From NCBI GenBank assembly GCA_031425655.1, contig JANPJS010000231.1:1-18131 (forward strand): a stretch of DNA of 18,131 nt, in the 5' to 3' direction. Source of the DNA: Abditibacteriaceae bacterium. GTDB lineage: Bacteria > Armatimonadota > Abditibacteriia > Abditibacteriales > Abditibacteriaceae. How positions within the stretch are numbered: the stretch's first letter is position 1; every line of letters starts with the position of its first letter. Below are positions 2,292 through 15,953 of the stretch, in pieces. The position numbers and the translations under genes were made by a program. A model generated the notes under the pieces. That model was not told the origin of the DNA. It ran no database searches and saw only the letters and a list, made by a program, of their open reading frames with translations.

Positions 2292-4988
2292 ATGCAGTCC
2301 ATGAAAACCCAAAAAATTACAGTGCTGCTCATAATCGGCACCGCAGGGGCGGTCCTGTCCACTTATGGGCAAGAGGCCTTGCTTTCTTTTGAAGCGGCCA
2401 GAGAACGGGGACGCCTGAAATCCAGATACGTGAGTGTGACCACGGATGTCGCAAAAGCCCCGGTCGTTGGTCCGAAGGCGAACCTTGCTTTCTATCAAAA
2501 ATCGGTGGCGCCAGTCCTGAAAAAGAGCTGCTTAGCCTGTCATGGCCCCACAAAGGCCAAGGGCAGGCTGCGCATTGATCAACTGAACCCAGACCTGCTG
2601 ACTGGCCCCGATGTGGAGAAGTGGCGCGAAGTCTTCAACGCTCTGAGCAAATCGGAGATGCCGCCTGCGGACGAACCGGATTATGCCCTCGCCGATGCTG
2701 ATCGCGCGCGCATTGTTGATTGGCTCACCGAGGAACTGAATACAGCGTCGCTCATACGTCGCAGCAGCAAGGAACATTCGTCTTTTCGGCGTTTGACGAG
2801 CTACGAATATAACTACGCTCTGCAAGACCTGCTTGGTCTGCAACACGTGGTTCCGACCAAGCTGCCGCCGGAAACCGCCTCTGAGGACGGCTTCAAAAAC
2901 AGTTCGGAACTGCTGCAAATGTCCGTCATGCAGTTTGAGACCTATCGTGAGATTGGCCTCAAAGCACTCAAGCGAGCCACGGTTATTGGTGAGCGTCCCC
3001 TGGCCGTTACTTATATCATCTCGATGAACGAAGAGATGGAAAAGGCGGTGAAGGCAAAAGACGCCAAGACCAGCAAAGACACTCCCAGAAAGCCGAGAAA
3101 CCAGCGGCAGTTGTTCCATCGTGAGACGGGCGAGAGCATTGCGTTTGGCGAAGGAGCGTCGTTGCCAAAGGCCGATGCTGTAGTCGGGCAAACTCCTGCT
3201 GTTTCTCCTGTTGTGCTGGTGCTTCCGCGCTCCAACGAGTTGAAGCTCAATTTGGATCGCTTTCTCCCCGACGAAGGCACCATGCGCGTTCGCATTCGCG
3301 CCGGGCGCTCTAACATGAACCCGGACGAGTTTGCGAGCCTGCGCCTGATATTCAGTGCCCACACCAGCAACAACGCGAACTTCTCGCAGGTCGTCAGCGA
3401 GCGCGACATCCCGGTCACGGCATCGGCTGACGCGCCGCAATTCATTGATTTCGATATTCCGCTGAGCGATATTCAGCGCAACCCGTTCCGCAAGCTCACC
3501 ACAACGTTTCCAAGGCGCGATGAATTTCTGCACATTCAGAACGTCTCGAATGCGGGCGGCAAAGAACCGCTTCAGGTTCAAATTGACTACATCGAAATCA
3601 GCGCGCCGTTTTACGAACAATGGCCGCCGAAGTCGCACACTGACATTTTCTTTGCGAGCAACAACAAAAACAACGAGCAGCTTTATGGCCGCGAGGTGCT
3701 GAATCGTTTCCTCAGGCGTGTCTGGCGTCGTCCTGTCACCAAGCCGGAAGTCGAGCAGTTCATGGCCTTGTTTGCCAAGTATCGGCCCGGCTTCCCGACC
3801 TTCGAAGGGGCCATGGTGGAAGTGATGGCCACGGCTCTGGCGACACCGGAGTTCCTCTACCTGACGCAACGAGAGTCGCCTGCCGAGGCCGCGACCGCAC
3901 CAACAAAAGCTGTATCAACCAAAGCCGCGTCAACCAAAGCCCCGCCAGTCAAATCCACGCCAACCAAAGCCGCGCCAACGAAATCTTCGTCTAAAATTAG
4001 CGATCTGGAATTCGCCAGCCGCCTCTCGATTTTTTTGTGGTCGAGCATCCCTGACGACGAGTTACTGACACTGGCCGAGCGGGGAAAACTCCGAGAGCCA
4101 ACGGTCTTGTCGGCTCAGGTGAAACGTATGTTAGCCGACCCGCGCGCGCGACGCTTCACGCAGAACTTCGTTGACCAATGGCTGGGTTTGGACAGGATAA
4201 ACAGTGTCAACCATCTGACCGACGAGTCCTTGAAAGAAGCGATGCTGGAAGAGCCAAAGGCTTACTTTGATGAAGTCCTGCGGAACAACCGCAGCGTCAT
4301 GGATTTCATTCATTCTGATTACGCCTTAGTCAACGAGCGACTCGCAGCGCACTATCGAATTCCCAAGGTGTATGGCCCAGAGTTCCGCAAAGTGCCCATT
4401 ACCCTGCAAACGAATCGCGGCGGCATTTTGGCAAGTGCGGCAACGATGACGATGAACTCCGACGGCAAGGATTCTAATCCTCTCAAGCGTGGTGTCTGGT
4501 TGATGAAGCGCATCCTCGACGATCCGCCGCCGCCGCCGCCGCCGAATGTCCCGACGGTTGACCTGACGAATCCGGAGATTCTGAAAATGACCGTGAAGGA
4601 GCGCATTGCCGACCACCGCAACAAACCGGCGTGCATTTCGTGTCACGCCAAAATTGATCCCTGGGGCATTGCATTCGAGAACTACGATTCCCTCGGAGCC
4701 TATCGCACCAGCATTGAGAACAAACCTGTTGATGCGACCTCCGAACTTTTCAACAAGCAGACTCTGGCCGGGGTTGATGGACTTAAACGATACTTGCTCA
4801 TGGATCGGCAAGATCAATTTTCCAGAGCCATGGTGCATAAGCTAACGGCTTATGCGCTGGGAAGACCGCTTACTTTTGCCGACCGTGCCGACGTTGACAG
4901 CTTGACGGCGCGATTCAGAAAACAGGATGATAAGCTGGGCGACCTGATCTCCCTAATTATCAGCAGTGACCTTTTTAATTCCAAATAA
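2292..4988 (+). CDS. Planctomycete-type cytochrome c domain protein (PSCyt1 + DUF1587/DUF1595/DUF1592/DUF1588/DUF1585 architecture)
   Basis: Two CxxCH motifs (CLACH, CISCH), MPP after the first haem site, RRLTSYEYNYALQDLLG, EFASRLSIFLWSSIPDDEL, SNPLKRGVW..DPPPPPPPNVP, KLTAYALGR. Hydrophobic N-terminus. Start is ATG 2292 or 2301 rather than the track's 2229. Confidence 0.92.
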   Translation: MQSMKTQKITVLLIIGTAGAVLSTYGQEALLSFEAARERGRLKSRYVSVTTDVAKAPVVGPKANLAFYQKSVAPVLKKSCLACHGPTKAKGRLRIDQLNPDLLTGPDVEKWREVFNALSKSEMPPADEPDYALADADRARIVDWLTEELNTASLIRRSSKEHSSFRRLTSYEYNYALQDLLGLQHVVPTKLPPETASEDGFKNSSELLQMSVMQFETYREIGLKALKRATVIGERPLAVTYIISMNEEMEKAVKAKDAKTSKDTPRKPRNQRQLFHRETGESIAFGEGASLPKADAVVGQTPAVSPVVLVLPRSNELKLNLDRFLPDEGTMRVRIRAGRSNMNPDEFASLRLIFSAHTSNNANFSQVVSERDIPVTASADAPQFIDFDIPLSDIQRNPFRKLTTTFPRRDEFLHIQNVSNAGGKEPLQVQIDYIEISAPFYEQWPPKSHTDIFFASNNKNNEQLYGREVLNRFLRRVWRRPVTKPEVEQFMALFAKYRPGFPTFEGAMVEVMATALATPEFLYLTQRESPAEAATAPTKAVSTKAASTKAPPVKSTPTKAAPTKSSSKISDLEFASRLSIFLWSSIPDDELLTLAERGKLREPTVLSAQVKRMLADPRARRFTQNFVDQWLGLDRINSVNHLTDESLKEAMLEEPKAYFDEVLRNNRSVMDFIHSDYALVNERLAAHYRIPKVYGPEFRKVPITLQTNRGGILASAATMTMNSDGKDSNPLKRGVWLMKRILDDPPPPPPPNVPTVDLTNPEILKMTVKERIADHRNKPACISCHAKIDPWGIAFENYDSLGAYRTSIENKPVDATSELFNKQTLAGVDGLKRYLLMDRQDQFSRAMVHKLTAYALGRPLTFADRADVDSLTARFRKQDDKLGDLISLIISSDLFNSK
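3897..3986 (+). repeat. Six imperfect 15-bp tandem repeats encoding a xx(T/V)K(A/S) pentapeptide linker
   Basis: gcaccaacaaaagct / gtatcaaccaaagcc / gcgtcaaccaaagcc / ccgccagtcaaatcc / acgccaaccaaagcc / gcgccaacgaaatct = APTKA VSTKA ASTKA PPVKS TPTKA APTKS. Confidence 0.85.
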
Positions 4989-7841: not shown

Positions 7842-7968
7842 GAAGGGACGCGGAGTTGCGCTATCCGACCCACAAGTGGGTGCCCCGATTTCGTGCGCGG
7901 ATTTTCGCTGATTTTTCAAAAGAATCCGTGTAAATCCGTGTCGTTTCAGTGCAATCCGCGTTCTATTC
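7842..7968. repeat. REP-like imperfect palindrome, copy 1 (related to 12330-12464)
   Basis: Ends gaagggacgcggagttgc ... gcaatccgcgttctattc are imperfect inverted repeats, with internal aatccgtg repeats. 7887-7914 matches the reverse complement of 12411-12438 at 27/28 nt. Confidence 0.8.
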
Positions 7969-7996
7969 AACCGCCGACAAATCGAAGAAAAACTCT

Positions 7997-8431
7997 ATGA
8001 ACCACAAATTAGCCTTCGCATTTTTCGCGGCGCTGCCTGTGCCCGCGCACGGATGCGCCGACACGGTGGAACTGGTGGTGGGCGGGCCGCGCGATGCGGT
8101 GGATGTTCCGGCGACGCAGACGCTACTGCGCGAGCCGTTTGGCACGGCCTTCGATGCCAAGGGCACGGCGTGGATTGTGGAAATGGCGTCCGGCAACCGC
8201 TTGCTGCACATCAAAGAAAACGGCACTCTGCGCCAAGTGGCGGGGCGCGAAGCACAATTTGATGGCCCGCATAATTTGGCGGTTTTGCCCAGCGACGAAG
8301 TGCTGATTGGCGACACATGGAACGGCAAAGTGCGCTGCGTGCAGCCGCGCACCGGCCAAATCAGCGACGTGGAAGGCTGGAGCGTGCCCAAGGAAAAAGC
8401 GCCGCGCCGGTTTCGCGTTCCAACGCGCTGA
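7997..8431 (+). pseudogene. Truncated NHL-repeat (beta-propeller) secreted protein
   Basis: Signal-like N-terminus. NHL-type blades LREPFGTAFDAKGTAWIVE and FDGPHNLAVLPSDEVLIGDTWNGKVR. Only about 2-3 blades before the frame runs into unrelated sequence at ~8400. Confidence 0.65.
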
Positions 8432-8556
8432 GAATCTCTTTCAATTCGTCCACGACGGCTTCGAGTTCGGTAATGGCTTCGGCGGCCAAGTCGCCGGGTT
8501 CGATGCTTGCGTCGTCATGGGCCAAGCGACATTCAAACGACCTGCAATCTCTCTAC
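8405..8556 (-). pseudogene. hsdM: C-terminal remnant of a type I restriction-modification M subunit
   Basis: Minus strand reads REIAGRLNVAW, then after a 1-nt frameshift HDDASIEPGDLAAEAITELEAVVDELKEILSALE. This resembles the HsdM C-terminal LDI.WL.DD...P..LA.E...LE helix (recognised from memory, not searched). Confidence 0.6.
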
Positions 8557-8610
8557 TTGTGATTGGTATACCTAAAGGGGCTGCATCAGCCATCATTCTT
8601 TTACCTCAGA

Positions 8611-9786
8611 TTATCTCCAATGGAGTCCATCGCTCAGCGTATTGAGGTTGTCGCATCCGTGCTCGGTCACCACGACCATGTCTTCGATACGGACTCCGCC
8701 AAGGTCGCGGCGGTAGAGGCCCGGCTCGACAGTCAGGGCCTCGCCCGTCAGCAGCGCGGGGCCTTTGATGTCTAATAATGGTGGTTCGTGGACATCGAGT
8801 CCGATTCCGTGACCTGTTCCATGCGTGAGGGCGCAATAAGAAAGCGGGGCATTCGCGGCGGGCAGGCCGAAAGCGTAGCCTGCGCCCTGCATCGCCTGCA
8901 CGGTTGCGCGATGAACGGCTTCGCCCGTGACTCCGGCGGCGATGGATTGCTCGGCGGCCAATTTCGCGGCTCGCACGGCGGCGTGCATGCGTTGAACTTC
9001 ATCGGGAATCTCGCCATGCACCACGGTGCGAGTGCAGTCGCCGTTATAGCGCGTCTTGCGATAGCGCGGAAAAATATCCACGATGACAGGTTCGCCGGTG
9101 AGGAGTTCACCCGTGCCCAGATAGTGACAATCCGCTGCCGCCGGCCCGCCGGCAATAATCGCCATGGGATTGATAAAATCACGATCCAACAGCCAATGAT
9201 CGACCGCTGCGCGGACGCGCTCAGAAGTCAATGCTTGGCCCTCATGCAGGAGCACGCCGTCACGCCGGACGTTGGCGCAGGCGATTAACTCACACGCCAT
9301 TTGCACGGCGCCTTCGGTGATGCGCTGGGCCTCGCGTAGGTGCTCGATTTCTTCGGTGGATTTTTGGCGGCGTTCGCTGACCCATTGGTCGGGATCGCAT
9401 TCGATGATAATGCCGGCCTTGCGGGCGAAGTCCGCGAAAATGAGCGGCAGCGTGCGATCTCCCAGCGCCACCGTAACACCCGCGCGGCGCAGGCATTCGG
9501 CAGCGGCCTGGGCGTTTGCCGTTTCCCGGTCGCCCGACAGGCCGCCTGTGGGCGTAAAATCCGCCGGGCAGGCTACGCTATCGACGCGTGCCGATTGCCG
9601 GGCGCGATTCATTTCGATGTCGCGCAGAATCAGCACCGATTTGCTGCCGGTTTGCCCCGGAAGTTCGATGAATACGACTTGGTCGCAGACCGAAAAGCGG
9701 ATGCGCCAGTAAAGGCTGCTGTTAACTTCGGGGATGCCGGCGGCGATTCTTGCGACGGCGGGCGACGAAGTGGAAGAGCTATTCAT
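8611..9786 (-). CDS. M24 family Xaa-Pro aminopeptidase/prolidase
   Basis: Metal ligands in VDIFP, YNGDCTRT, HGTGHGIGLDVHEPP, TVEPGLY, GVRIEDMV. ATGA overlap with the upstream DPP-IV stop. Confidence 0.93.
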   Translation of the reverse strand: MNSSSTSSPAVARIAAGIPEVNSSLYWRIRFSVCDQVVFIELPGQTGSKSVLILRDIEMNRARQSARVDSVACPADFTPTGGLSGDRETANAQAAAECLRRAGVTVALGDRTLPLIFADFARKAGIIIECDPDQWVSERRQKSTEEIEHLREAQRITEGAVQMACELIACANVRRDGVLLHEGQALTSERVRAAVDHWLLDRDFINPMAIIAGGPAAADCHYLGTGELLTGEPVIVDIFPRYRKTRYNGDCTRTVVHGEIPDEVQRMHAAVRAAKLAAEQSIAAGVTGEAVHRATVQAMQGAGYAFGLPAANAPLSYCALTHGTGHGIGLDVHEPPLLDIKGPALLTGEALTVEPGLYRRDLGGVRIEDMVVVTEHGCDNLNTLSDGLHWR

Positions 9787-12086
9787 GATAGTGATGGAAG
9801 CGGCGAGGGAGTTGCGGGCAGGTTTGCGCCCAAATAGCGGGTCAGCGTTTCGTAGAGGTGACGCTTGGTGTTTTTGCCTTCATTAAGGCCATGACCGCAG
9901 TTTGGATAAGAAATCTGGGCAAACTGCTTATTATGGTTAATGAGTTCGTTCACCAAAACCTCGCAGTTCTGGTAGTGGCAGTTATCGTCGCCCGTGCCGT
10001 AAACCAGCAGCAAATTGCCCTTCAGTTGGTGGGCAAAGGTGATAGGCGACCCGTGGGTGAATCCGTCTTCGTTGTCGGCGGGCAGCCCCATGTAACGCTC
10101 CTGATAAATCGTATCGTAGAACCTTTGGTTGGCAACGAAAGCGATGGCCATCGCGGTTTGATAAAGCTCTGGGTAACGAAAAATGGCATTCAGGCTCATC
10201 GAACCGCCGCCGCTCCATCCCCAAATGCCAACGCGTGCCGCATCGAGATAAGGCCGTTGCCGCAGAATCTCCTGGGTCGCTGCCGCTTGATCGGCGGAGG
10301 CAACGCTGCCGATTTGCCGATAGACACTTTTGCGCCAGGCACGCCCCAACGGAGCCGGAGTGCCGCGATTATCAATGCTCATGACGACATAGCCCCGCTG
10401 CGCCAACATCGCGTGCCAAAGGTAGTTGTCGCCGCCCCAGGCATCAACAACTGTCGAGGCGGCAGGTTCGCCATAAACATGAATAAAAAGCGGATACGAA
10501 CGCGCGGGGTCGAAGTCCGGCGGCTTGATGCACCAGGCATCAACCACCACATCTTGGCCGATGTCCACTTTGAAAAACTCATGGGGGCACGGCGTGATTT
10601 CGGCCATTTTTTGCCGCAACGTGGCGTTGCCGGCTAATACACGCACGACCTCGTGCTCCGGCAGGCTGACCAATTCGATGACGGGCGGTTGGCCGAAACA
10701 CGAGAAGGTGTGAAACGCCCAAAGACCGTCTTTTGAGAAACGATAGGAATGTGCGCCCTGCTGCTCAATCGGCGAAACGCGTTCCGCTTCGCCCGTTCCA
10801 TCCAGCCGGGCACGGTAGAGGTAGCGTTGGGTCGGGTTGTCCGGAGAAGCGATGAAGTAAGCGAAGCCCCGTTGTTCATCCACACCCGCCACACTCATCA
10901 CGTCAAACTCGCCCGGAGTCAGCAAGCGAATCGCCTGATCTTTTACCCTGACCGCGTAAAGGTGCTGCCACCCATCGCGTTCACTGAGCCAGAGGAAACT
11001 GGCGCCTTTGTCAATCCACCGCCACTCGGACATCACTTCCACCCAGGCGTCGTCGCGGTCGGTGAAGATGACTTGCGTCTCGCCCGTTTGAGGGTCGCCG
11101 CTGATGACTTGATTGGTATTTTGCAGCCGGTTCAACTGTTGAAAAAGGATGCGTTGGGAATCGCTCGACCATTCCATGCGGGGAATGTAGTGATTCCTTG
11201 GATCCGGGTTCGGGTTGAACCATTGGGTGGCTCCGCCGTTGGCACCCACAACGCCTACCCGGCACGCGGAGTTGGTTTCGCCGACTTTGGGATAAGCGTA
11301 GGAAGTGATCTGCGGATAAAGCGAGTCGGTGTTGTTGACGAGTGAAAACTCACGAACGCCGGAGGTATCGAACTGCCAGTAAGCGATTGACTGGGAATCG
11401 GGACTCCAGCGCAGGCCGTTGCGCAGGTGGAACTCCTCTTCGTTGACCCAGTCGGCTGTGCCGTTGATGATGGTGGCGCAGCCATCAAATGTCAGTTGGG
11501 TAATTTGCAAATCTTGCAGAGATTGCACGAACAGATTGTTCTCGCAGACATAAGCGAGGCTATCACCATCCGGGGAGAGAGTGGCAAACATCATCGTCGA
11601 GGGCGCACACGCTCCGCCTAATTGCTGCAAAGTGCCCTCTTTGCGATTCAACAGCCAGTAATCCCCGCGCGTCTTTTCACGCCAGACCCGCTGCGCATTG
11701 GTGAAGACCAATAATTTTTCCGCATCTTCTGTCCACGCATAATTTTCAATCTTGAGAGGCAAATCCTGCCCCGCAGGGATGAGACTCGCAGCCGGCACGA
11801 TGATTTCACTCTGCCCGGATGCAGGATCATATTTGACGATGTCTTTTATCTCTTTGGCCTGCTCGGCGCTGGCAAAAGCTTCTGAGACTTCCAGCGTGGT
11901 ATAACCCGCACCGTCCTTGAACCAGTGCGCGGGGCCCCAACTTTCGCTCTTAAATTCCTGTTCGGGGCCGAAAATGCGCTCCACAGTCAAGGGGCCGCGT
12001 TTTACGGGGGCATCAGGAGCTTGAACTTCGGCAAAGGTTGGCGTCTCGCCGTGCGGTGGATTGGGAATAGGCTTTGTGTTTGGCAT
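9783..12086 (-). CDS. S9B dipeptidyl peptidase IV (DPPIV_N propeller + peptidase S9)
   Basis: DWVNEEE (Glu-Glu motif), YPKVGETN, GWSGGG nucleophile, GTGDDNCH, catalytic His in CGHGL. ATG at 12086. Confidence 0.95.
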   Translation of the reverse strand: MPNTKPIPNPPHGETPTFAEVQAPDAPVKRGPLTVERIFGPEQEFKSESWGPAHWFKDGAGYTTLEVSEAFASAEQAKEIKDIVKYDPASGQSEIIVPAASLIPAGQDLPLKIENYAWTEDAEKLLVFTNAQRVWREKTRGDYWLLNRKEGTLQQLGGACAPSTMMFATLSPDGDSLAYVCENNLFVQSLQDLQITQLTFDGCATIINGTADWVNEEEFHLRNGLRWSPDSQSIAYWQFDTSGVREFSLVNNTDSLYPQITSYAYPKVGETNSACRVGVVGANGGATQWFNPNPDPRNHYIPRMEWSSDSQRILFQQLNRLQNTNQVISGDPQTGETQVIFTDRDDAWVEVMSEWRWIDKGASFLWLSERDGWQHLYAVRVKDQAIRLLTPGEFDVMSVAGVDEQRGFAYFIASPDNPTQRYLYRARLDGTGEAERVSPIEQQGAHSYRFSKDGLWAFHTFSCFGQPPVIELVSLPEHEVVRVLAGNATLRQKMAEITPCPHEFFKVDIGQDVVVDAWCIKPPDFDPARSYPLFIHVYGEPAASTVVDAWGGDNYLWHAMLAQRGYVVMSIDNRGTPAPLGRAWRKSVYRQIGSVASADQAAATQEILRQRPYLDAARVGIWGWSGGGSMSLNAIFRYPELYQTAMAIAFVANQRFYDTIYQERYMGLPADNEDGFTHGSPITFAHQLKGNLLLVYGTGDDNCHYQNCEVLVNELINHNKQFAQISYPNCGHGLNEGKNTKRHLYETLTRYLGANLPATPSPLPSLS

Positions 12087-12284
12087 AAGCAAAGAGTTAT
12101 GTAATCGAAAAATAACAACTCAGGCGAGAAAATGGCCGGATACCGGGGTTTGATCAGAGGTGAGTTTGACCAAGCCGAAATCGGGGTTGTGAAACTGTTT
12201 GGTCGGGCTACCGCAGGCTCGGCTCGGTTGTCGCCCTCCAACGCCAATCCTTGTATTCCAGTGCGTAAAATATGCTCCCACTTA

Positions 12285-12510
12285 GAAGCTGTTTGAGAAT
12301 TCGTCAAAGCCTCAAATCGAAGACTTTTCAATAGGACACGGAGCTTCGCTTTCCGACCCGCAAGCGGGTGCCCCGAAACGGCGGCTTTGAAGGCGCGGTT
12401 TTACCGAACGAAATCAGCGAAAATCCGCGCATGAAATCTGCGTAGAGAAGCTCCGCGTCCTATTTAAAGCGCCTCAACCCAAGAGTGATAGCTATTTTTC
12501 AAACAGCTTC
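12285..12510. mobile_element. 226-bp MITE, IS5/IS1031-like, with TTA target duplication
   Basis: TIR GAAGCTGTTTGAgAAtT / rc GAAGCTGTTTGAaAAaT (12 bp perfect, 15/17). TTA at 12282-12284 and 12511-12513. No transposase. Confidence 0.85.
12330..12464. repeat. REP-like palindrome, copy 2, nested inside the 226-bp MITE
   Basis: aataggacacggagcttc ... gaagctccgcgtcctatt, 17/18 inverted repeat. Shares arm and hairpin modules with 7842-7968. Confidence 0.85.
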
Positions 12511-12732
12511 TTAGGTCGCTTGCCAACGATTTGAACAACTCTCCGATAAAAGCCGCTTCTTTGAGCGCGTAGTCATCCATTCTTTAGGATGAAATGAGAA
12601 AGGCGAACTTGCCGGCGATAGCATTCATTTTGTGGAGGCCACCGTGTCCGACTTGCCTGTTGGCGCGGCGGCACTACGCGCACGATTTCTTCAAGTTGCC
12701 TCTGCATCAGCACTAACGCGGCGTCTACCTGA

Positions 12733-12875
12733 GAGATAGTCTGAAAAGTCCCCTCCCCTTGCCGTTTAAGGGGAGGGTTAGGGTGGGGTTCTGCCATTTA
12801 CAGAACCCCATCCCCAGCCCTTCCCCTTGATACGGCAAAGGGGAAGGGAGTCTCCACCACTTTTCAGACTATCTC
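12733..12875. mobile_element. 143-bp MITE, IS5/IS1031-like, with TGA target duplication
   Basis: Perfect 17-bp TIR GAGATAGTCTGAAAAGT / ACTTTTCAGACTATCTC. TGA at 12730-12732 and 12876-12878. Clean excision restores a reading frame. Confidence 0.92.
12750..12850. repeat. G/C-tract REP-like palindrome filling the 143-bp MITE
   Basis: cccctccccttgccgtttaaggggagggttagggtggggttctg-ccattta-cagaaccccatccccagcccttccccttgatacggcaaaggggaagggag. Each arm is also a hairpin. Translates as the PHPNPPL..GEG pattern familiar from repeats near DUF559 endonuclease genes. Confidence 0.8.
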
Positions 12876-13093
12876 TGAGGTTTTTGCTGGGCCAGCAATT
12901 CGTCTTTCAACTGCTACGTCCATCCCGCAACCTGGCGTGGTTGATACCCGTCCGGATTTGGCGTTGAATCGTTCATCAGAGCAACACCGCTCATCAAGAG
13001 AACGGCGAGAAGGAAATAACTTTTCATTGTTGCTCAGCGTCGGCGCCGCGATGCCGTTGGCGACGCAGATGAGCTTGCTCTGACTCCACCGGA

Positions 13094-14038
13094 TCAGGCT
13101 CGCGAACTCCGCCTATCCGACGACCGGGAAATGGTTTTTCCAGGAATCTTGGGCCGCTTCTCGATACCGTCGTGGATAATTTTCAATACGCGCTTGCGCT
13201 CTTCTCCCTTCAACACGAGGCGCGGCGCGCGAACCCATTCTTTGCCAAGACCGGTTTCCTGCACCGCCAACTTGATGTATTGCACGAATTTGGTGCTGAC
13301 ATCGAGGTGCAGAAGAGGCGTGAACCAGCGGTAAATCTCGCGCGCCTTGTCCCACTCGCCGCGTCGCGTGAGTTCCCAGAAGTATTGGTTCTCCGCCGGG
13401 AAGGCGATGCCGGTGCCCGCCACCCAGCCGTCAATGCCAAGGATGCTGGCTTCGAGCGCGAGGTTGTCCACGCCGGTGAAGATGGCGTAACGGTCGCCGA
13501 CGGTGTTGTGCAAATCGGTAATGCGGCGCACGTCGCCGGAGCTTTCCTTGAGCGCAACGAAGTTTTTCCGGTCGGCCAGCTTTGCCAACAGTTCCGGTGT
13601 GATGTCGTTCGCGTAGCTGATCGGGTTGTTGTAAATCATGATCGGCAGCCCCGTGGACTTCGCCACGGTGCGGAAATGTGTGAGCGTTTCGTCAGGGTCA
13701 CCCTTGTAAAGCATCGCAGGCATGAGCATCACGCCGTCGGCTCCGAGTTTCTCCATGTCGCGCGTGTAGCGCACCGCTTCAGCCGTGCTCGTTTCAGCCA
13801 CGCCGCTCAGAACCTGAACGCGCCCATTCACGACTTCAATCATCGATTCCATGACGCGGCGTTTCTCGTCGCCCGTCATGGGCTGGTTCTCGCCGAGTGA
13901 GCCGAGGAAAACCAGACCCTTGATGCCGGACTTGATGAGCGATTCAACGTGAAAGGCGGTCGCGTCGAGATCGAGCGAACCGTCTTTGTGCATCTGAGTC
14001 GTGATGGCGGGGAAGACGCCGGTCCAGTGAGGTTTCAT
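13094..14038 (-). CDS. DHDPS-family protein, likely delta1-pyrroline-4-hydroxy-2-carboxylate deaminase (LhpC-like)
   Basis: WTGVFPAITTQ, GSLGEN, IYNNP, Schiff-base Lys in LKESSGD, REIYRWFTPLLHLD and VRAPRL as in the hydroxyproline-pathway subfamily. Adjacent to a Hyp dehydratase. ATG at 14038. Confidence 0.82.
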   Translation of the reverse strand: MKPHWTGVFPAITTQMHKDGSLDLDATAFHVESLIKSGIKGLVFLGSLGENQPMTGDEKRRVMESMIEVVNGRVQVLSGVAETSTAEAVRYTRDMEKLGADGVMLMPAMLYKGDPDETLTHFRTVAKSTGLPIMIYNNPISYANDITPELLAKLADRKNFVALKESSGDVRRITDLHNTVGDRYAIFTGVDNLALEASILGIDGWVAGTGIAFPAENQYFWELTRRGEWDKAREIYRWFTPLLHLDVSTKFVQYIKLAVQETGLGKEWVRAPRLVLKGEERKRVLKIIHDGIEKRPKIPGKTISRSSDRRSSRA

Positions 14039-14083
14039 AATCGTAAGAAAGTGTTTATTGCTCAGTCGTGTCGCTGGCAAGTT

Positions 14084-15187
14084 TCAGAAGATCTCTACAA
14101 TTGGGTTGCCGAGCACATCCATCTTCACCTGTATGCCGAGTCCCGGTGCTTTCGAGGCAGCCATGCGACCGTTAATACGTTTTGGCGCTCCGTCGGCGGT
14201 GCTGACGGTCACATAGCTGTTAAAGTCGGTGGTGGTGAAAAGAAATTCCGTGGGCGTGCTGTGCGCAAGATGCGCGATGGCGGCGGTTGCGATGTCGCCG
14301 CCCCAGGAATCCTCCAATGTCATGGCGATGCCCATGCTCACGCACAGGTCGCGAGCTTGACGGATTTTCGTGAGGCCGCCGAGCTTGCTGATTTTCAAAT
14401 TCACCACGTCCATTGCGAGGTCGGCCTTGGCGCGCAGCAGGATGTTCAGGTCATCAATGTTTTCGTCGAGCACAAATGGGTGGTCGCACTGCCGGCGGAC
14501 GGCAAGACATTCCTCGTAAGTCAGGCAAGGCTGCTCGATGTAAACATCCACGTCGCGCACGGCCTTGGCGACGCGCACGGCTTCGTGCTGCACCCAGCCA
14601 GTGTTAGCGTCGGCCACGAGACGGTCGCCGGGCTGGAGTTTCGCGGCGACGGCGCGGATGCGAGCGATGTCCACGTCCGGATCACCGCCGACCTTGAGCT
14701 GGAAACGACGGTAGCCTTCGGCACGGTAGTCCGCGACTTTGCCGGCCATTTCCTCCGGTGACTCCTGGGAGATGGCACGGTAAAGAACGACATCCTCGCC
14801 ATAACGGCCGCCAAGTAATTCACACACAGGCATCTGCGTTGCCTGGCCGAGAATGTCCCAGCACGCGATGTCCACGCCGCTCTTTACATAGGGATGGCCT
14901 TTGAGCGCCGCGTCCATGGTGCGATTGAGTTTGGCGAGCTGGCGTGGGTCTTCGCCCAGCAAATGCGGACCGAGTTCACGCAGGCCCACCCGCACACCTT
15001 CTGCATAGGCGGGCAGATAGAACGGGCCGAGCGGACAAACCTCGCCATGGCCCACGAGTCCGCTGTCGGTCTCGACGCGGACGACAGTGCTGTCGAACAC
15101 GGTGACGGATTTGCCGCCGCTCCATTTGTAAGTCGTCTCGTGCAGCGGCAATTCGACGCGATAGGCGAGGATTCTTGTAATTTTCAT
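14084..15187 (-). CDS. cis-3-hydroxy-L-proline dehydratase (enolase superfamily, MR/MLE subgroup)
   Basis: [35 protein letters not shown], metal ligands DAN / EQP / LDE, NLKISK, EDSWGGD, TDFNSY; closely follows the characterised c3LHyp dehydratase pattern as recalled. ATG at 15187. Confidence 0.88.
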
Positions 15188-15371
15188 GGGTTGCCGAAAG
15201 AAACGAAAATGCGAAAGAATTTGAATTGAGGGGTGAAAGATACGACTAATTTGTTTTTTCGGCCACTTAATCGTCCGGCTGGTGCAGCGGTCGGGAGATG
15301 CCATATATTTTGATGGAGATCCGTCCCGTTCCAAAGTGTAGCAGGCTCAATTTCAAGCGTGCAATTTGAAC

Positions 15372-15627
15372 TGAACTTGTCCCCATAAAATGGACAGCAA
15401 GAGAGGAGCTATTGTGTGTTGAGCTGATAAGCCAACTCAAAAGCAATCGGACATTTGTTGCCTCCTTCCCAGAGGGCGCCCGCAGAATGCCGGCAAATCG
15501 AGATGTAAAAGTTGGCGATATAGTCACCAACCAACCACGCTGCCTGACTCTTGCTGGCAAAGCGTCGCCCTCGCTGATCGGCCAGCAACTCGGCTTTAAG
15601 TGTGCCGAAAAAGCTTTTCGCCAGACC
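15372..15627 (-). mobile_element. IS3-family remnant: integrase C-terminus plus right terminal repeat
   Basis: AKSFFGTLKAEL...F.SK..A...DYIANFY...RHSA...CPIAFE (rve_3-type C-terminus), stop at 15409, then TGTCCATTTTATGGGGACAAGTTCA ending in CA at 15372. The 5' part is absent. Confidence 0.85.
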
Positions 15628-15953
15628 CAATGCAAAAGTCTTCGTCAGTTGACAAATCACACGAAACGCTGCGTTTTTCACGGCTTAGGGGTTTCGTTCA
15701 GCGCTCCAATGTTGTAGCGGGACGCTCTTGTCACCGCCATGCGACAACAGGAATTGGCGACCCCGCCTGTCGGAAAGTAAGCGTTGCGCTCGCCACTCCC
15801 GGTCTCCATTTCATCAATGCCGAAGAGATCAAGAACTTCTGGCGCTCTGATCCTTACGGCACTCTCCAATGGCGTGTTCTCGCCCGGCTTTCGTTATCGC
15901 AACCCCGTGATCAATTTCGTCTCCTATTGAATGATCAAACAGACCCCGAAATC

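What the first reader, a model, noticed from the sequence alone, without database searches (positions are those of the whole stretch)
7868..15482. Candidate ultra-short mobile mini-hairpin (15-19 bp) with covariation and an empty site
Seen: three related motifs, all in the same orientation: acccacaagtgggtgccccg (7868), acccgcaagcgggtgccccg (12356) and cccagagggcgcccg (15468); consensus CCC-loop-GGG-YGCCC(C)G. Copies 1 and 2 differ by a compensatory A:T to G:C pair in the stem. The REP arm at 7846-7914 aligns to the reverse complement of 12411-12460 (10/10 and 27/28 flanks) but has exactly 19 extra nt, which is the hairpin, so filled and empty versions co-occur. The third copy adds 5 codons in an IS3 transposase remnant. 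Inference: a family of tiny structure-selected insertions or excision footprints, far smaller than MITEs or Rickettsia palindromic elements, with an unknown mobilising enzyme. Exact boundaries are ambiguous by 1-2 nt.
Basis: partly seen in the sequence, partly recalled or inferred. Interest (0 to 1): 0.82.

Follow-up and report, generated by a model that had tools for sequence, protein, structure and literature searches.

The report
Tiny hairpin that overwrites five bases
This bacterium carries over 300 copies of a 20-letter mobile DNA hairpin that takes the place of five letters of its landing site each time it arrives, even inside working genes, and an RNA-guided jumping gene has in turn learned to land inside it; the enzyme that moves the hairpin is unknown.

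Summary
The three motifs are real copies of a genome-wide family: 333 copies against 2 in a reversed-genome control. It is not a clean insertion. Filled/empty comparison shows the cassette replaces 5 target bases (217 of 261 copies with an empty allele), starting with C in 83 of 84 site classes; 0 of 84 fit a clean insertion. The first base varies (T>C>A) between insertions at one site. The stem covaries (G:C 143, A:T 23, other 7). Copies sit in more than 12 unrelated REP-like families, in IS3 and ISAs1 remnants, and in frame (+15) in host genes, twice in TyrRS. The family also occurs patchily in Chloroflexota. An IS110 whose putative bridge-RNA guides match the hairpin sits in its loop at about 10 places; it looks like a passenger. 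No RT was found in three copy-rich genomes, and no linked RAYT. Closest known: Nostoc SDRs. This scan noted similar 20-21 nt elements on other DNA before (e1-7347315, e1-7231757).

The parts
7864..7887 (+). Micro-element, long-loop variant (24 nt, net +19), A:T stem variant
   Evidence: Empty alleles with the same flanks hold a 5-mer: CGCGG x10, CGCAG, CACGG; fold
7846..7914 (+). Host REP-like arm (filled)
   Evidence: (D4, I1)
12352..12375 (+). Micro-element, long-loop variant (24 nt, net +19)
   Evidence: Site class CGCTT|AAACG: empties CGCGG x3, CACGG x1; the same site holds the 20-nt form in other copies
12326..12468 (.). Host REPIN-like inverted pair; left arm filled, right arm empty
   Evidence: I6; folds at z -3.69; many genomic copies
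12438..12442 (-). Empty target 5-mer (CGCAG) in the right arm
15463..15482 (+). Micro-element, main 20-nt form with one stem substitution (net +15)
   Evidence: Closest IS3 homologues have CAACG or TAACG at this place (L009, L008)
15409..15681 (-). IS3-family integrase 3' remnant that hosts the third copy
   Evidence: Weak rve_2 match, E 3e-4, just under the cut-off; homologues at 39-79% identity in 6 of 26 other family genomes

Best explanation
A non-autonomous mobile micro-element of 19-24 nt: a C-rich left end, a 4-bp stem with a small loop, and a CCCG right end. It is copied into new sites by an enzyme acting in trans. Shown: each arrival leaves both flanks intact, removes 5 target bases that begin with C, makes no duplication, and leaves a variable first base; 20- and 23-nt forms keep reading frames. 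Filled REPs then spread with their host repeat. Inferred: the enzyme recognises the hairpin on single-stranded DNA, joins the CCCG end precisely, and the join at the target C is error-prone (untemplated or bypass-type base, A most often on the opposite strand). Two readings of that join cannot be told apart: five bases replaced, or C kept, one base added before it and four replaced. My best guess for the enzyme is a DNA-level nuclease/strand-transferase of the REP-associated kind (HUH-like), about 45%; it is not identified. The IS110 in the loop is a secondary parasite.
For: Gap between flanks in empty alleles is 5 in 217 of 261 copies and 84 of 111 site classes; C first in 83 of 84; 36 different 5-mers. 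14 site classes hold more than one first base or length variant, so the same site was hit more than once. First base T 70, C 43, A 36, G 5 of 154 and unlinked to inner variants (p 0.60, 0.58). Covariation G:C/A:T in 166 of 173 classes. Orthologue tests give +15 at both TyrRS sites and a PRC-barrel gene (3 of 3 relatives each) and in IS3. 271 of 321 copies have repeated flanks against 776 of 3000 random non-coding C positions; 102 of 132 site classes. One host REP family flanks a RAYT-like gene (C12). E. coli TnpA-REP works on ssDNA hairpins with very low cut-site specificity and does strand transfer (PMC3333891, passages). No RVT_1 match in G000, G019, G237.
Against: No enzyme is linked in cis: none of 6 Y1 genes has a copy within 2.5 kb, and no recurrent neighbour protein was found. 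Y1_Tnp is in 25 of 27 family genomes, so co-occurrence says nothing. Targets do not follow the CT rule of TnpA-REP: the base after C is A 27, C 16, G 24, T 17. No strand bias against GC skew (47:47; skew is weak) and no clear structural position of targets. 44 of 261 copies have another modal gap (4, 6, 7, 10), some from my boundary rule, some real. In Chloroflexota the first two bases vary more and a G-starting target was seen. The loop inside a transketolase-like gene also varies in length among relatives. Inner variants are unlinked to each other too (p 0.84), which weakens the linkage test.
Confidence: 0.5

Rival explanations
1. No dedicated enzyme: host replication or repair polymerases switch template onto a copy of the hairpin at stalled or nicked C-rich repeats and resume a few bases on.
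For: Variable first base with an A-rule-like bias; targets lie in C-rich repeats and often end in CG like the element (position 4 C 41, position 5 G 37 of 84); no linked gene.
Against: A loss fixed at 5 bases over 36 different 5-mers and two phyla, and an exact right end, are hard to get from slippage.
Confidence: 0.2
2. RNA route: a short transcript is reverse-transcribed at a staggered cut (target-primed), giving the 5-base loss and an untemplated base.
For: Untemplated additions and small target deletions are typical of target-primed RT (own knowledge); the stem covaries.
Against: RVT_1 not found in G000 (97% complete), G019, G237, while 21 of 27 family genomes have one. No orientation bias to flanking genes (58 same, 48 opposite).
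Confidence: 0.12
3. The IS110 makes or moves the hairpin (footprint or half-match by-product).
For: All 10 right ends and 9 left ends of this IS abut half-hairpins. All 7 family genomes with this IS clade have the hairpin. IS110s show single-strand and half-match routes (abstracts of 10.1101/2025.10.25.684509 and 10.64898/2026.08.31.748434).
Against: The IS joins at a CT core inside the loop, not at the element's ends. Relatives with other guides sit in other repeats with no hairpin. Copy-rich G237, G245, G096, G161, G019 (53-142 copies) have no match to this clade with this query. 23 of 27 family genomes have the hairpin, so 7 of 7 is weak.
Confidence: 0.08
4. The motif is only a conserved part of one REP family, spread passively.
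For: Most copies lie in repeats; 75 of 333 lie in close pairs.
Against: It sits in more than 12 unrelated repeat families, each with empty alleles, and in single-copy genes.
Confidence: 0.03

Closest known systems
Small dispersed repeats (SDR) of Nostocaceae (Elhai et al. 2008, Genome Res 18:1484; not held; seen only as cited in PMC4390886, PMC5861425, PMC3116915)
   Same: Very short dispersed mobile repeat, nested in other repeats, no known enzyme. Size 21-27 nt and compensatory changes are recalled, not read here.
   Different: Other phyla; SDR5 is described as a precise insertion between bases 3 and 4 of HIP1 (PMC4390886 passage), whereas this element removes 5 bases and has a variable first base. 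Whether other SDRs replace target bases could not be checked.
REP/REPIN with RAYT (TnpA-REP) (PMC3116915, PMC3333891, PMC3733652; passages)
   Same: Small hairpin, non-autonomous, mostly extragenic, sometimes in frame in genes.
   Different: No GTAG/CGTC tag, not a flank of any Y1 gene, no CT cut rule; it is a guest inside REPs, not the REP.
Rickettsia palindromic elements (as described in PMC3733652 passages)
   Same: In-frame insertions in working genes.
   Different: Much shorter (5-6 codons) and mostly inside other repeats.
IS621 and IS110-group bridge recombinases (PMC11208160, passages)
   Same: Applies to the nested IS: CT core, left-end non-coding region with guides matching both target arms, repeat targets.
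   Different: Its target is a 20-nt micro-element nested in REPs, reached in two registers (G000/G266/G125 and G107).

Membership tests
SDR (Nostocaceae) | Dispersed unit of about 20-27 nt with covarying stem | tested here: met
   19-24 nt, 333 copies, covariation p 5e-24; SDR size range is recalled
SDR (Nostocaceae) | Nested in other repeats | tested here: met
   heptamer tandem repeats in Chloroflexota loci
SDR (Nostocaceae) | Precise insertion without target loss (stated for SDR5) | tested here: not met
   0 of 84 site classes fit
SDR (Nostocaceae) | Sequence kinship to SDR1-8 | not testable with these tools
   Paper not held
REP/REPIN-RAYT | GTAG or CGTC tag at the foot of the hairpin | tested here: not met
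   Column counts show no such tag
REP/REPIN-RAYT | Repeat flanks its RAYT gene | tested here: not met
   0 of 6 Y1 genes have a copy within 2.5 kb; three lie near contig ends
REP/REPIN-RAYT | Cuts at CT | tested here: not met
   Target logo against PMC3333891
MITE | Terminal inverted repeats and target-site duplication | tested here: not met
   Ends are not inverted; target is lost, not doubled
Retro-element (RT-mobilised) | RT in the host | tested here: inconclusive
   RVT_1 not found in G000, G019, G237; draft genomes, one Pfam family only
IS110 group (nested IS) | DEDD and Transposase_20 domains | tested here: met
   Own fragment PF02371; relative L192 (81% identical to it) has both; own full gene is not assembled
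IS110 group (nested IS) | CT core and guides matching both target arms | tested here: met
   Left guide 9/9 and right guide 7/7 in G000 and G125; 7-8/9 and 6-7/7 in G107, G046, G220, G293, G021 with changed targets
IS110 group (nested IS) | Expressed bridge RNA | not testable with these tools
   No RNA holder listed

The most novel reading that the evidence does not exclude
This is a member of an undescribed class of 'replacement' micro-elements of about 20 nt, shared across phyla and moved by an unknown chemistry that needs only a C, deletes a fixed 5 bases and writes an untemplated base, tuned to keep reading frames; it is abundant enough to have become the programmed target of a bridge recombinase, giving a three-level nest (REP, hairpin, IS110).
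Probability: 0.4. Interest if true: 0.88.

Novelty: new variant of a known kind. Interest (0 to 1): 0.72.

Why it matters
How 20-base repeats move has been open since the SDRs were described. This family gives a sharp, countable signature (C target, 5 bases lost, variable first base, net +15) over hundreds of sites, so candidate enzymes can be tested against an exact product. It adds five residues to working proteins such as TyrRS. An enzyme that writes a short cassette at almost any C would be of interest as a tool. The retargeted IS110 is a natural example of guide reprogramming onto a 20-nt target.

Tried and rejected
Exact clean-deletion search: 31 of 543 loose hits had a joined-flank match, at lengths of 15-26 nt, mostly whole repeat units, none supporting a clean 15-16 nt indel. 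Fold energy as evidence: not beyond shuffles. Rfam: 0 matches in the window. Structural position of targets in host hairpins: no clear peak in 87 empty alleles. Orientation to transcription and GC skew: none. Recurrent neighbour proteins within 0.9-1.5 kb in own and foreign loci: only ABC transporters, regulators and repeat-derived spurious frames. Autonomous long version: half-elements lead only to IS110, other IS ends or chance matches. Orthologues of the window's 7864 locus: not found in 3 genus relatives. Sequencing runs: no RNA holder listed; contigs of 4 runs showed no empty allele at the three sites among the rows listed, and X1 may be the source sample. Viral contigs: 9 single matches, not interpretable. 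Single matches in other phyla were treated as chance. G305 gives the same places as G266 and was counted once. Literature searches that found no description of this family; the library lacks most subscription papers, and no supplements were read.

Full report
Observation. The three motifs are at the stated places. A stricter model gives 333 copies against 2 in the reversed genome: 277 main form, 21 a 19-nt form, 14 of 22-23 nt, 21 of the class that holds the window's two 24-nt copies (some of these are a shifted 20-nt form).

Boundaries. For 16 flank pairs I listed all alleles in the genome. Filled alleles were usually 15 nt longer than empty ones, but the bases at the junction differed. A genome-wide flank search settled this: of 331 testable copies, 261 have an empty-like allele (at most 1 mismatch in 10+10 flank bases), and in 217 of these the flanks are 5 bases apart. 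By site class the gap is 5 in 84 of 111, and the 5-mer starts with C in 83 of 84; no other position is fixed. None of the 84 fits a clean insertion (best fit 1-5 mismatches, median 3). So a 20-nt cassette takes the place of Cxxxx. In the window, copy 1 (7864-7887) replaces CGCGG/CGCAG, and the arm at 12438-12442 is such an empty site. The 44 other copies have modal gaps of 0-10, mostly 4 or 6; part is my boundary rule, part is real, for example one family with net +14.

The first base. It is T 70, C 43, A 36, G 5 among 154 site/variant combinations and is not linked to inner variants. 14 site classes hold more than one first base or length form, and equivalent sites in other genomes have other first bases. 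I infer that it is made at insertion. The second base is C in 150 of 154, so the target C may be kept with one base added before it; one Chloroflexota site with a G in both places fits that reading, two similar sites do not.

Structure. The pair outside CCC/GGG is G:C in 143, A:T in 23 and other in 7 of 173 flank classes (p 5e-24; classes are not fully independent). The next pair is not kept. Fold energy alone is ordinary.

Where it lands. 271 of 321 copies have repeated flanks against 26% of random non-coding C positions; host amplification inflates this, but 102 of 132 site classes still do. One host family flanks a RAYT-like gene. 53 of 333 copies overlap crude ORFs, mostly through spurious ORF extensions. 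I tested 6 in-gene sites against relatives and one against paralogues. TyrRS has two +15 inserts absent from 3 of 3 genus relatives, with C-start 5-mers in 2 of 3 and 3 of 3. A PRC-barrel gene has +15 against 3 of 3, losing CATCR. A PA14-like region is +15 against 5 of 5 homologues, and a Calx-beta-like repeat against its paralogues (these two names are recalled). Two sites are shared with G019 and absent in G237 and G266, with some length noise. The window's IS3 copy follows the rule. Three ISAs1-like genes, one from Chloroflexota, carry a copy at the same codons (no empty allele fetched), which hints at a site preference not seen in the logo.

Spread. The strict 19-mer is in 14 of 301 genomes of the phylum; a looser 16-mer in 23 of 27 family genomes, with one control match. 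Four Chloroflexota genomes hold 68-124 copies. In a sample of 301 of that phylum, 34 have a match and 8 have 7 or more, against 12 control matches. Five-base C-start empties are seen there too (CATCG, CATTG, CAACC), with more variation at the left end.

Enzyme. Y1 transposases are in 25 of 27 family genomes and none of the 6 own genes lies near a copy. RVT_1 was not found in G000, G019 or G237. No recurrent neighbour gene emerged. The enzyme stays unidentified; the fixed loss and exact right end argue for one.

Nested IS110. Ten left halves and nine right halves of the hairpin abut the ends of one IS, split at a 2-nt core (CT on the minus strand). The fragment is Transposase_20 and a close relative has both IS110 domains. 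Its left end holds a 9-base match to the left target arm and a 7-base complement of the right arm; across relatives these segments change with the target, as described for IS621 (PMC11208160, passages). G125 has complete copies in the same hairpin; G107 uses the next CT; G046, G220, G293 and G021 target other sequences. Five copy-rich genomes have no match to this clade. It is best read as a passenger.

Comparison and verdict. It works like the Nostoc SDRs but fails the precise-insertion feature stated for SDR5; I could not read the SDR paper. It is not a REP, MITE or IS footprint by the tests listed. Papers seen: passages of PMC4390886, PMC5861425, PMC3116915, PMC3733652, PMC3333891, PMC11208160; abstracts of two IS110 preprints; listings otherwise. 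Earlier scan notes describe similar 20-21 nt elements in other genomes; their sequences were not shown, and two sequence look-ups found nothing, so kinship is untested. Verdict: real, a new variant of a known but unexplained kind; interest 0.72.

Noticed in passing
G000 C101:5172-5552, C70 end, and 17 other contig ends: Multi-copy IS110 inserted in the loop of the hairpin; body not assembled; putative bridge-RNA guides match the hairpin.
   Followed up: yes
L085, L038, L181: ISAs1-like transposases of three genomes in two phyla carry the hairpin at the same codons.
   Followed up: partly
G000 C25:8795, C86:7671: Copies whose left and right flanks seem to come from different REP families, perhaps by recombination at the hairpin or through IS110 copies.
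   Followed up: no
G000 C187:19442, C304:8659, C56:13593-13638: Two copies side by side, each in place of an adjacent 5-mer or a few bases apart.
   Followed up: partly
window 12727-12881: Another REPIN-like inverted pair of a family that is filled at two different sites elsewhere; here empty.
   Followed up: partly
window 3901-3983: Five 15-nt tandem copies encoding a Thr/Lys/Ala-rich linker in a 919-aa ORF.
   Followed up: no
G000 C109:21409, C138:6797: Left half-hairpins followed by other, different IS-like ends.
   Followed up: no
family-wide: The genus of this genome almost lacks RVT_1 matches (none in 3 of 4, one broken weak match in G266) while 20 of the 23 other family genomes have one.
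   Followed up: no
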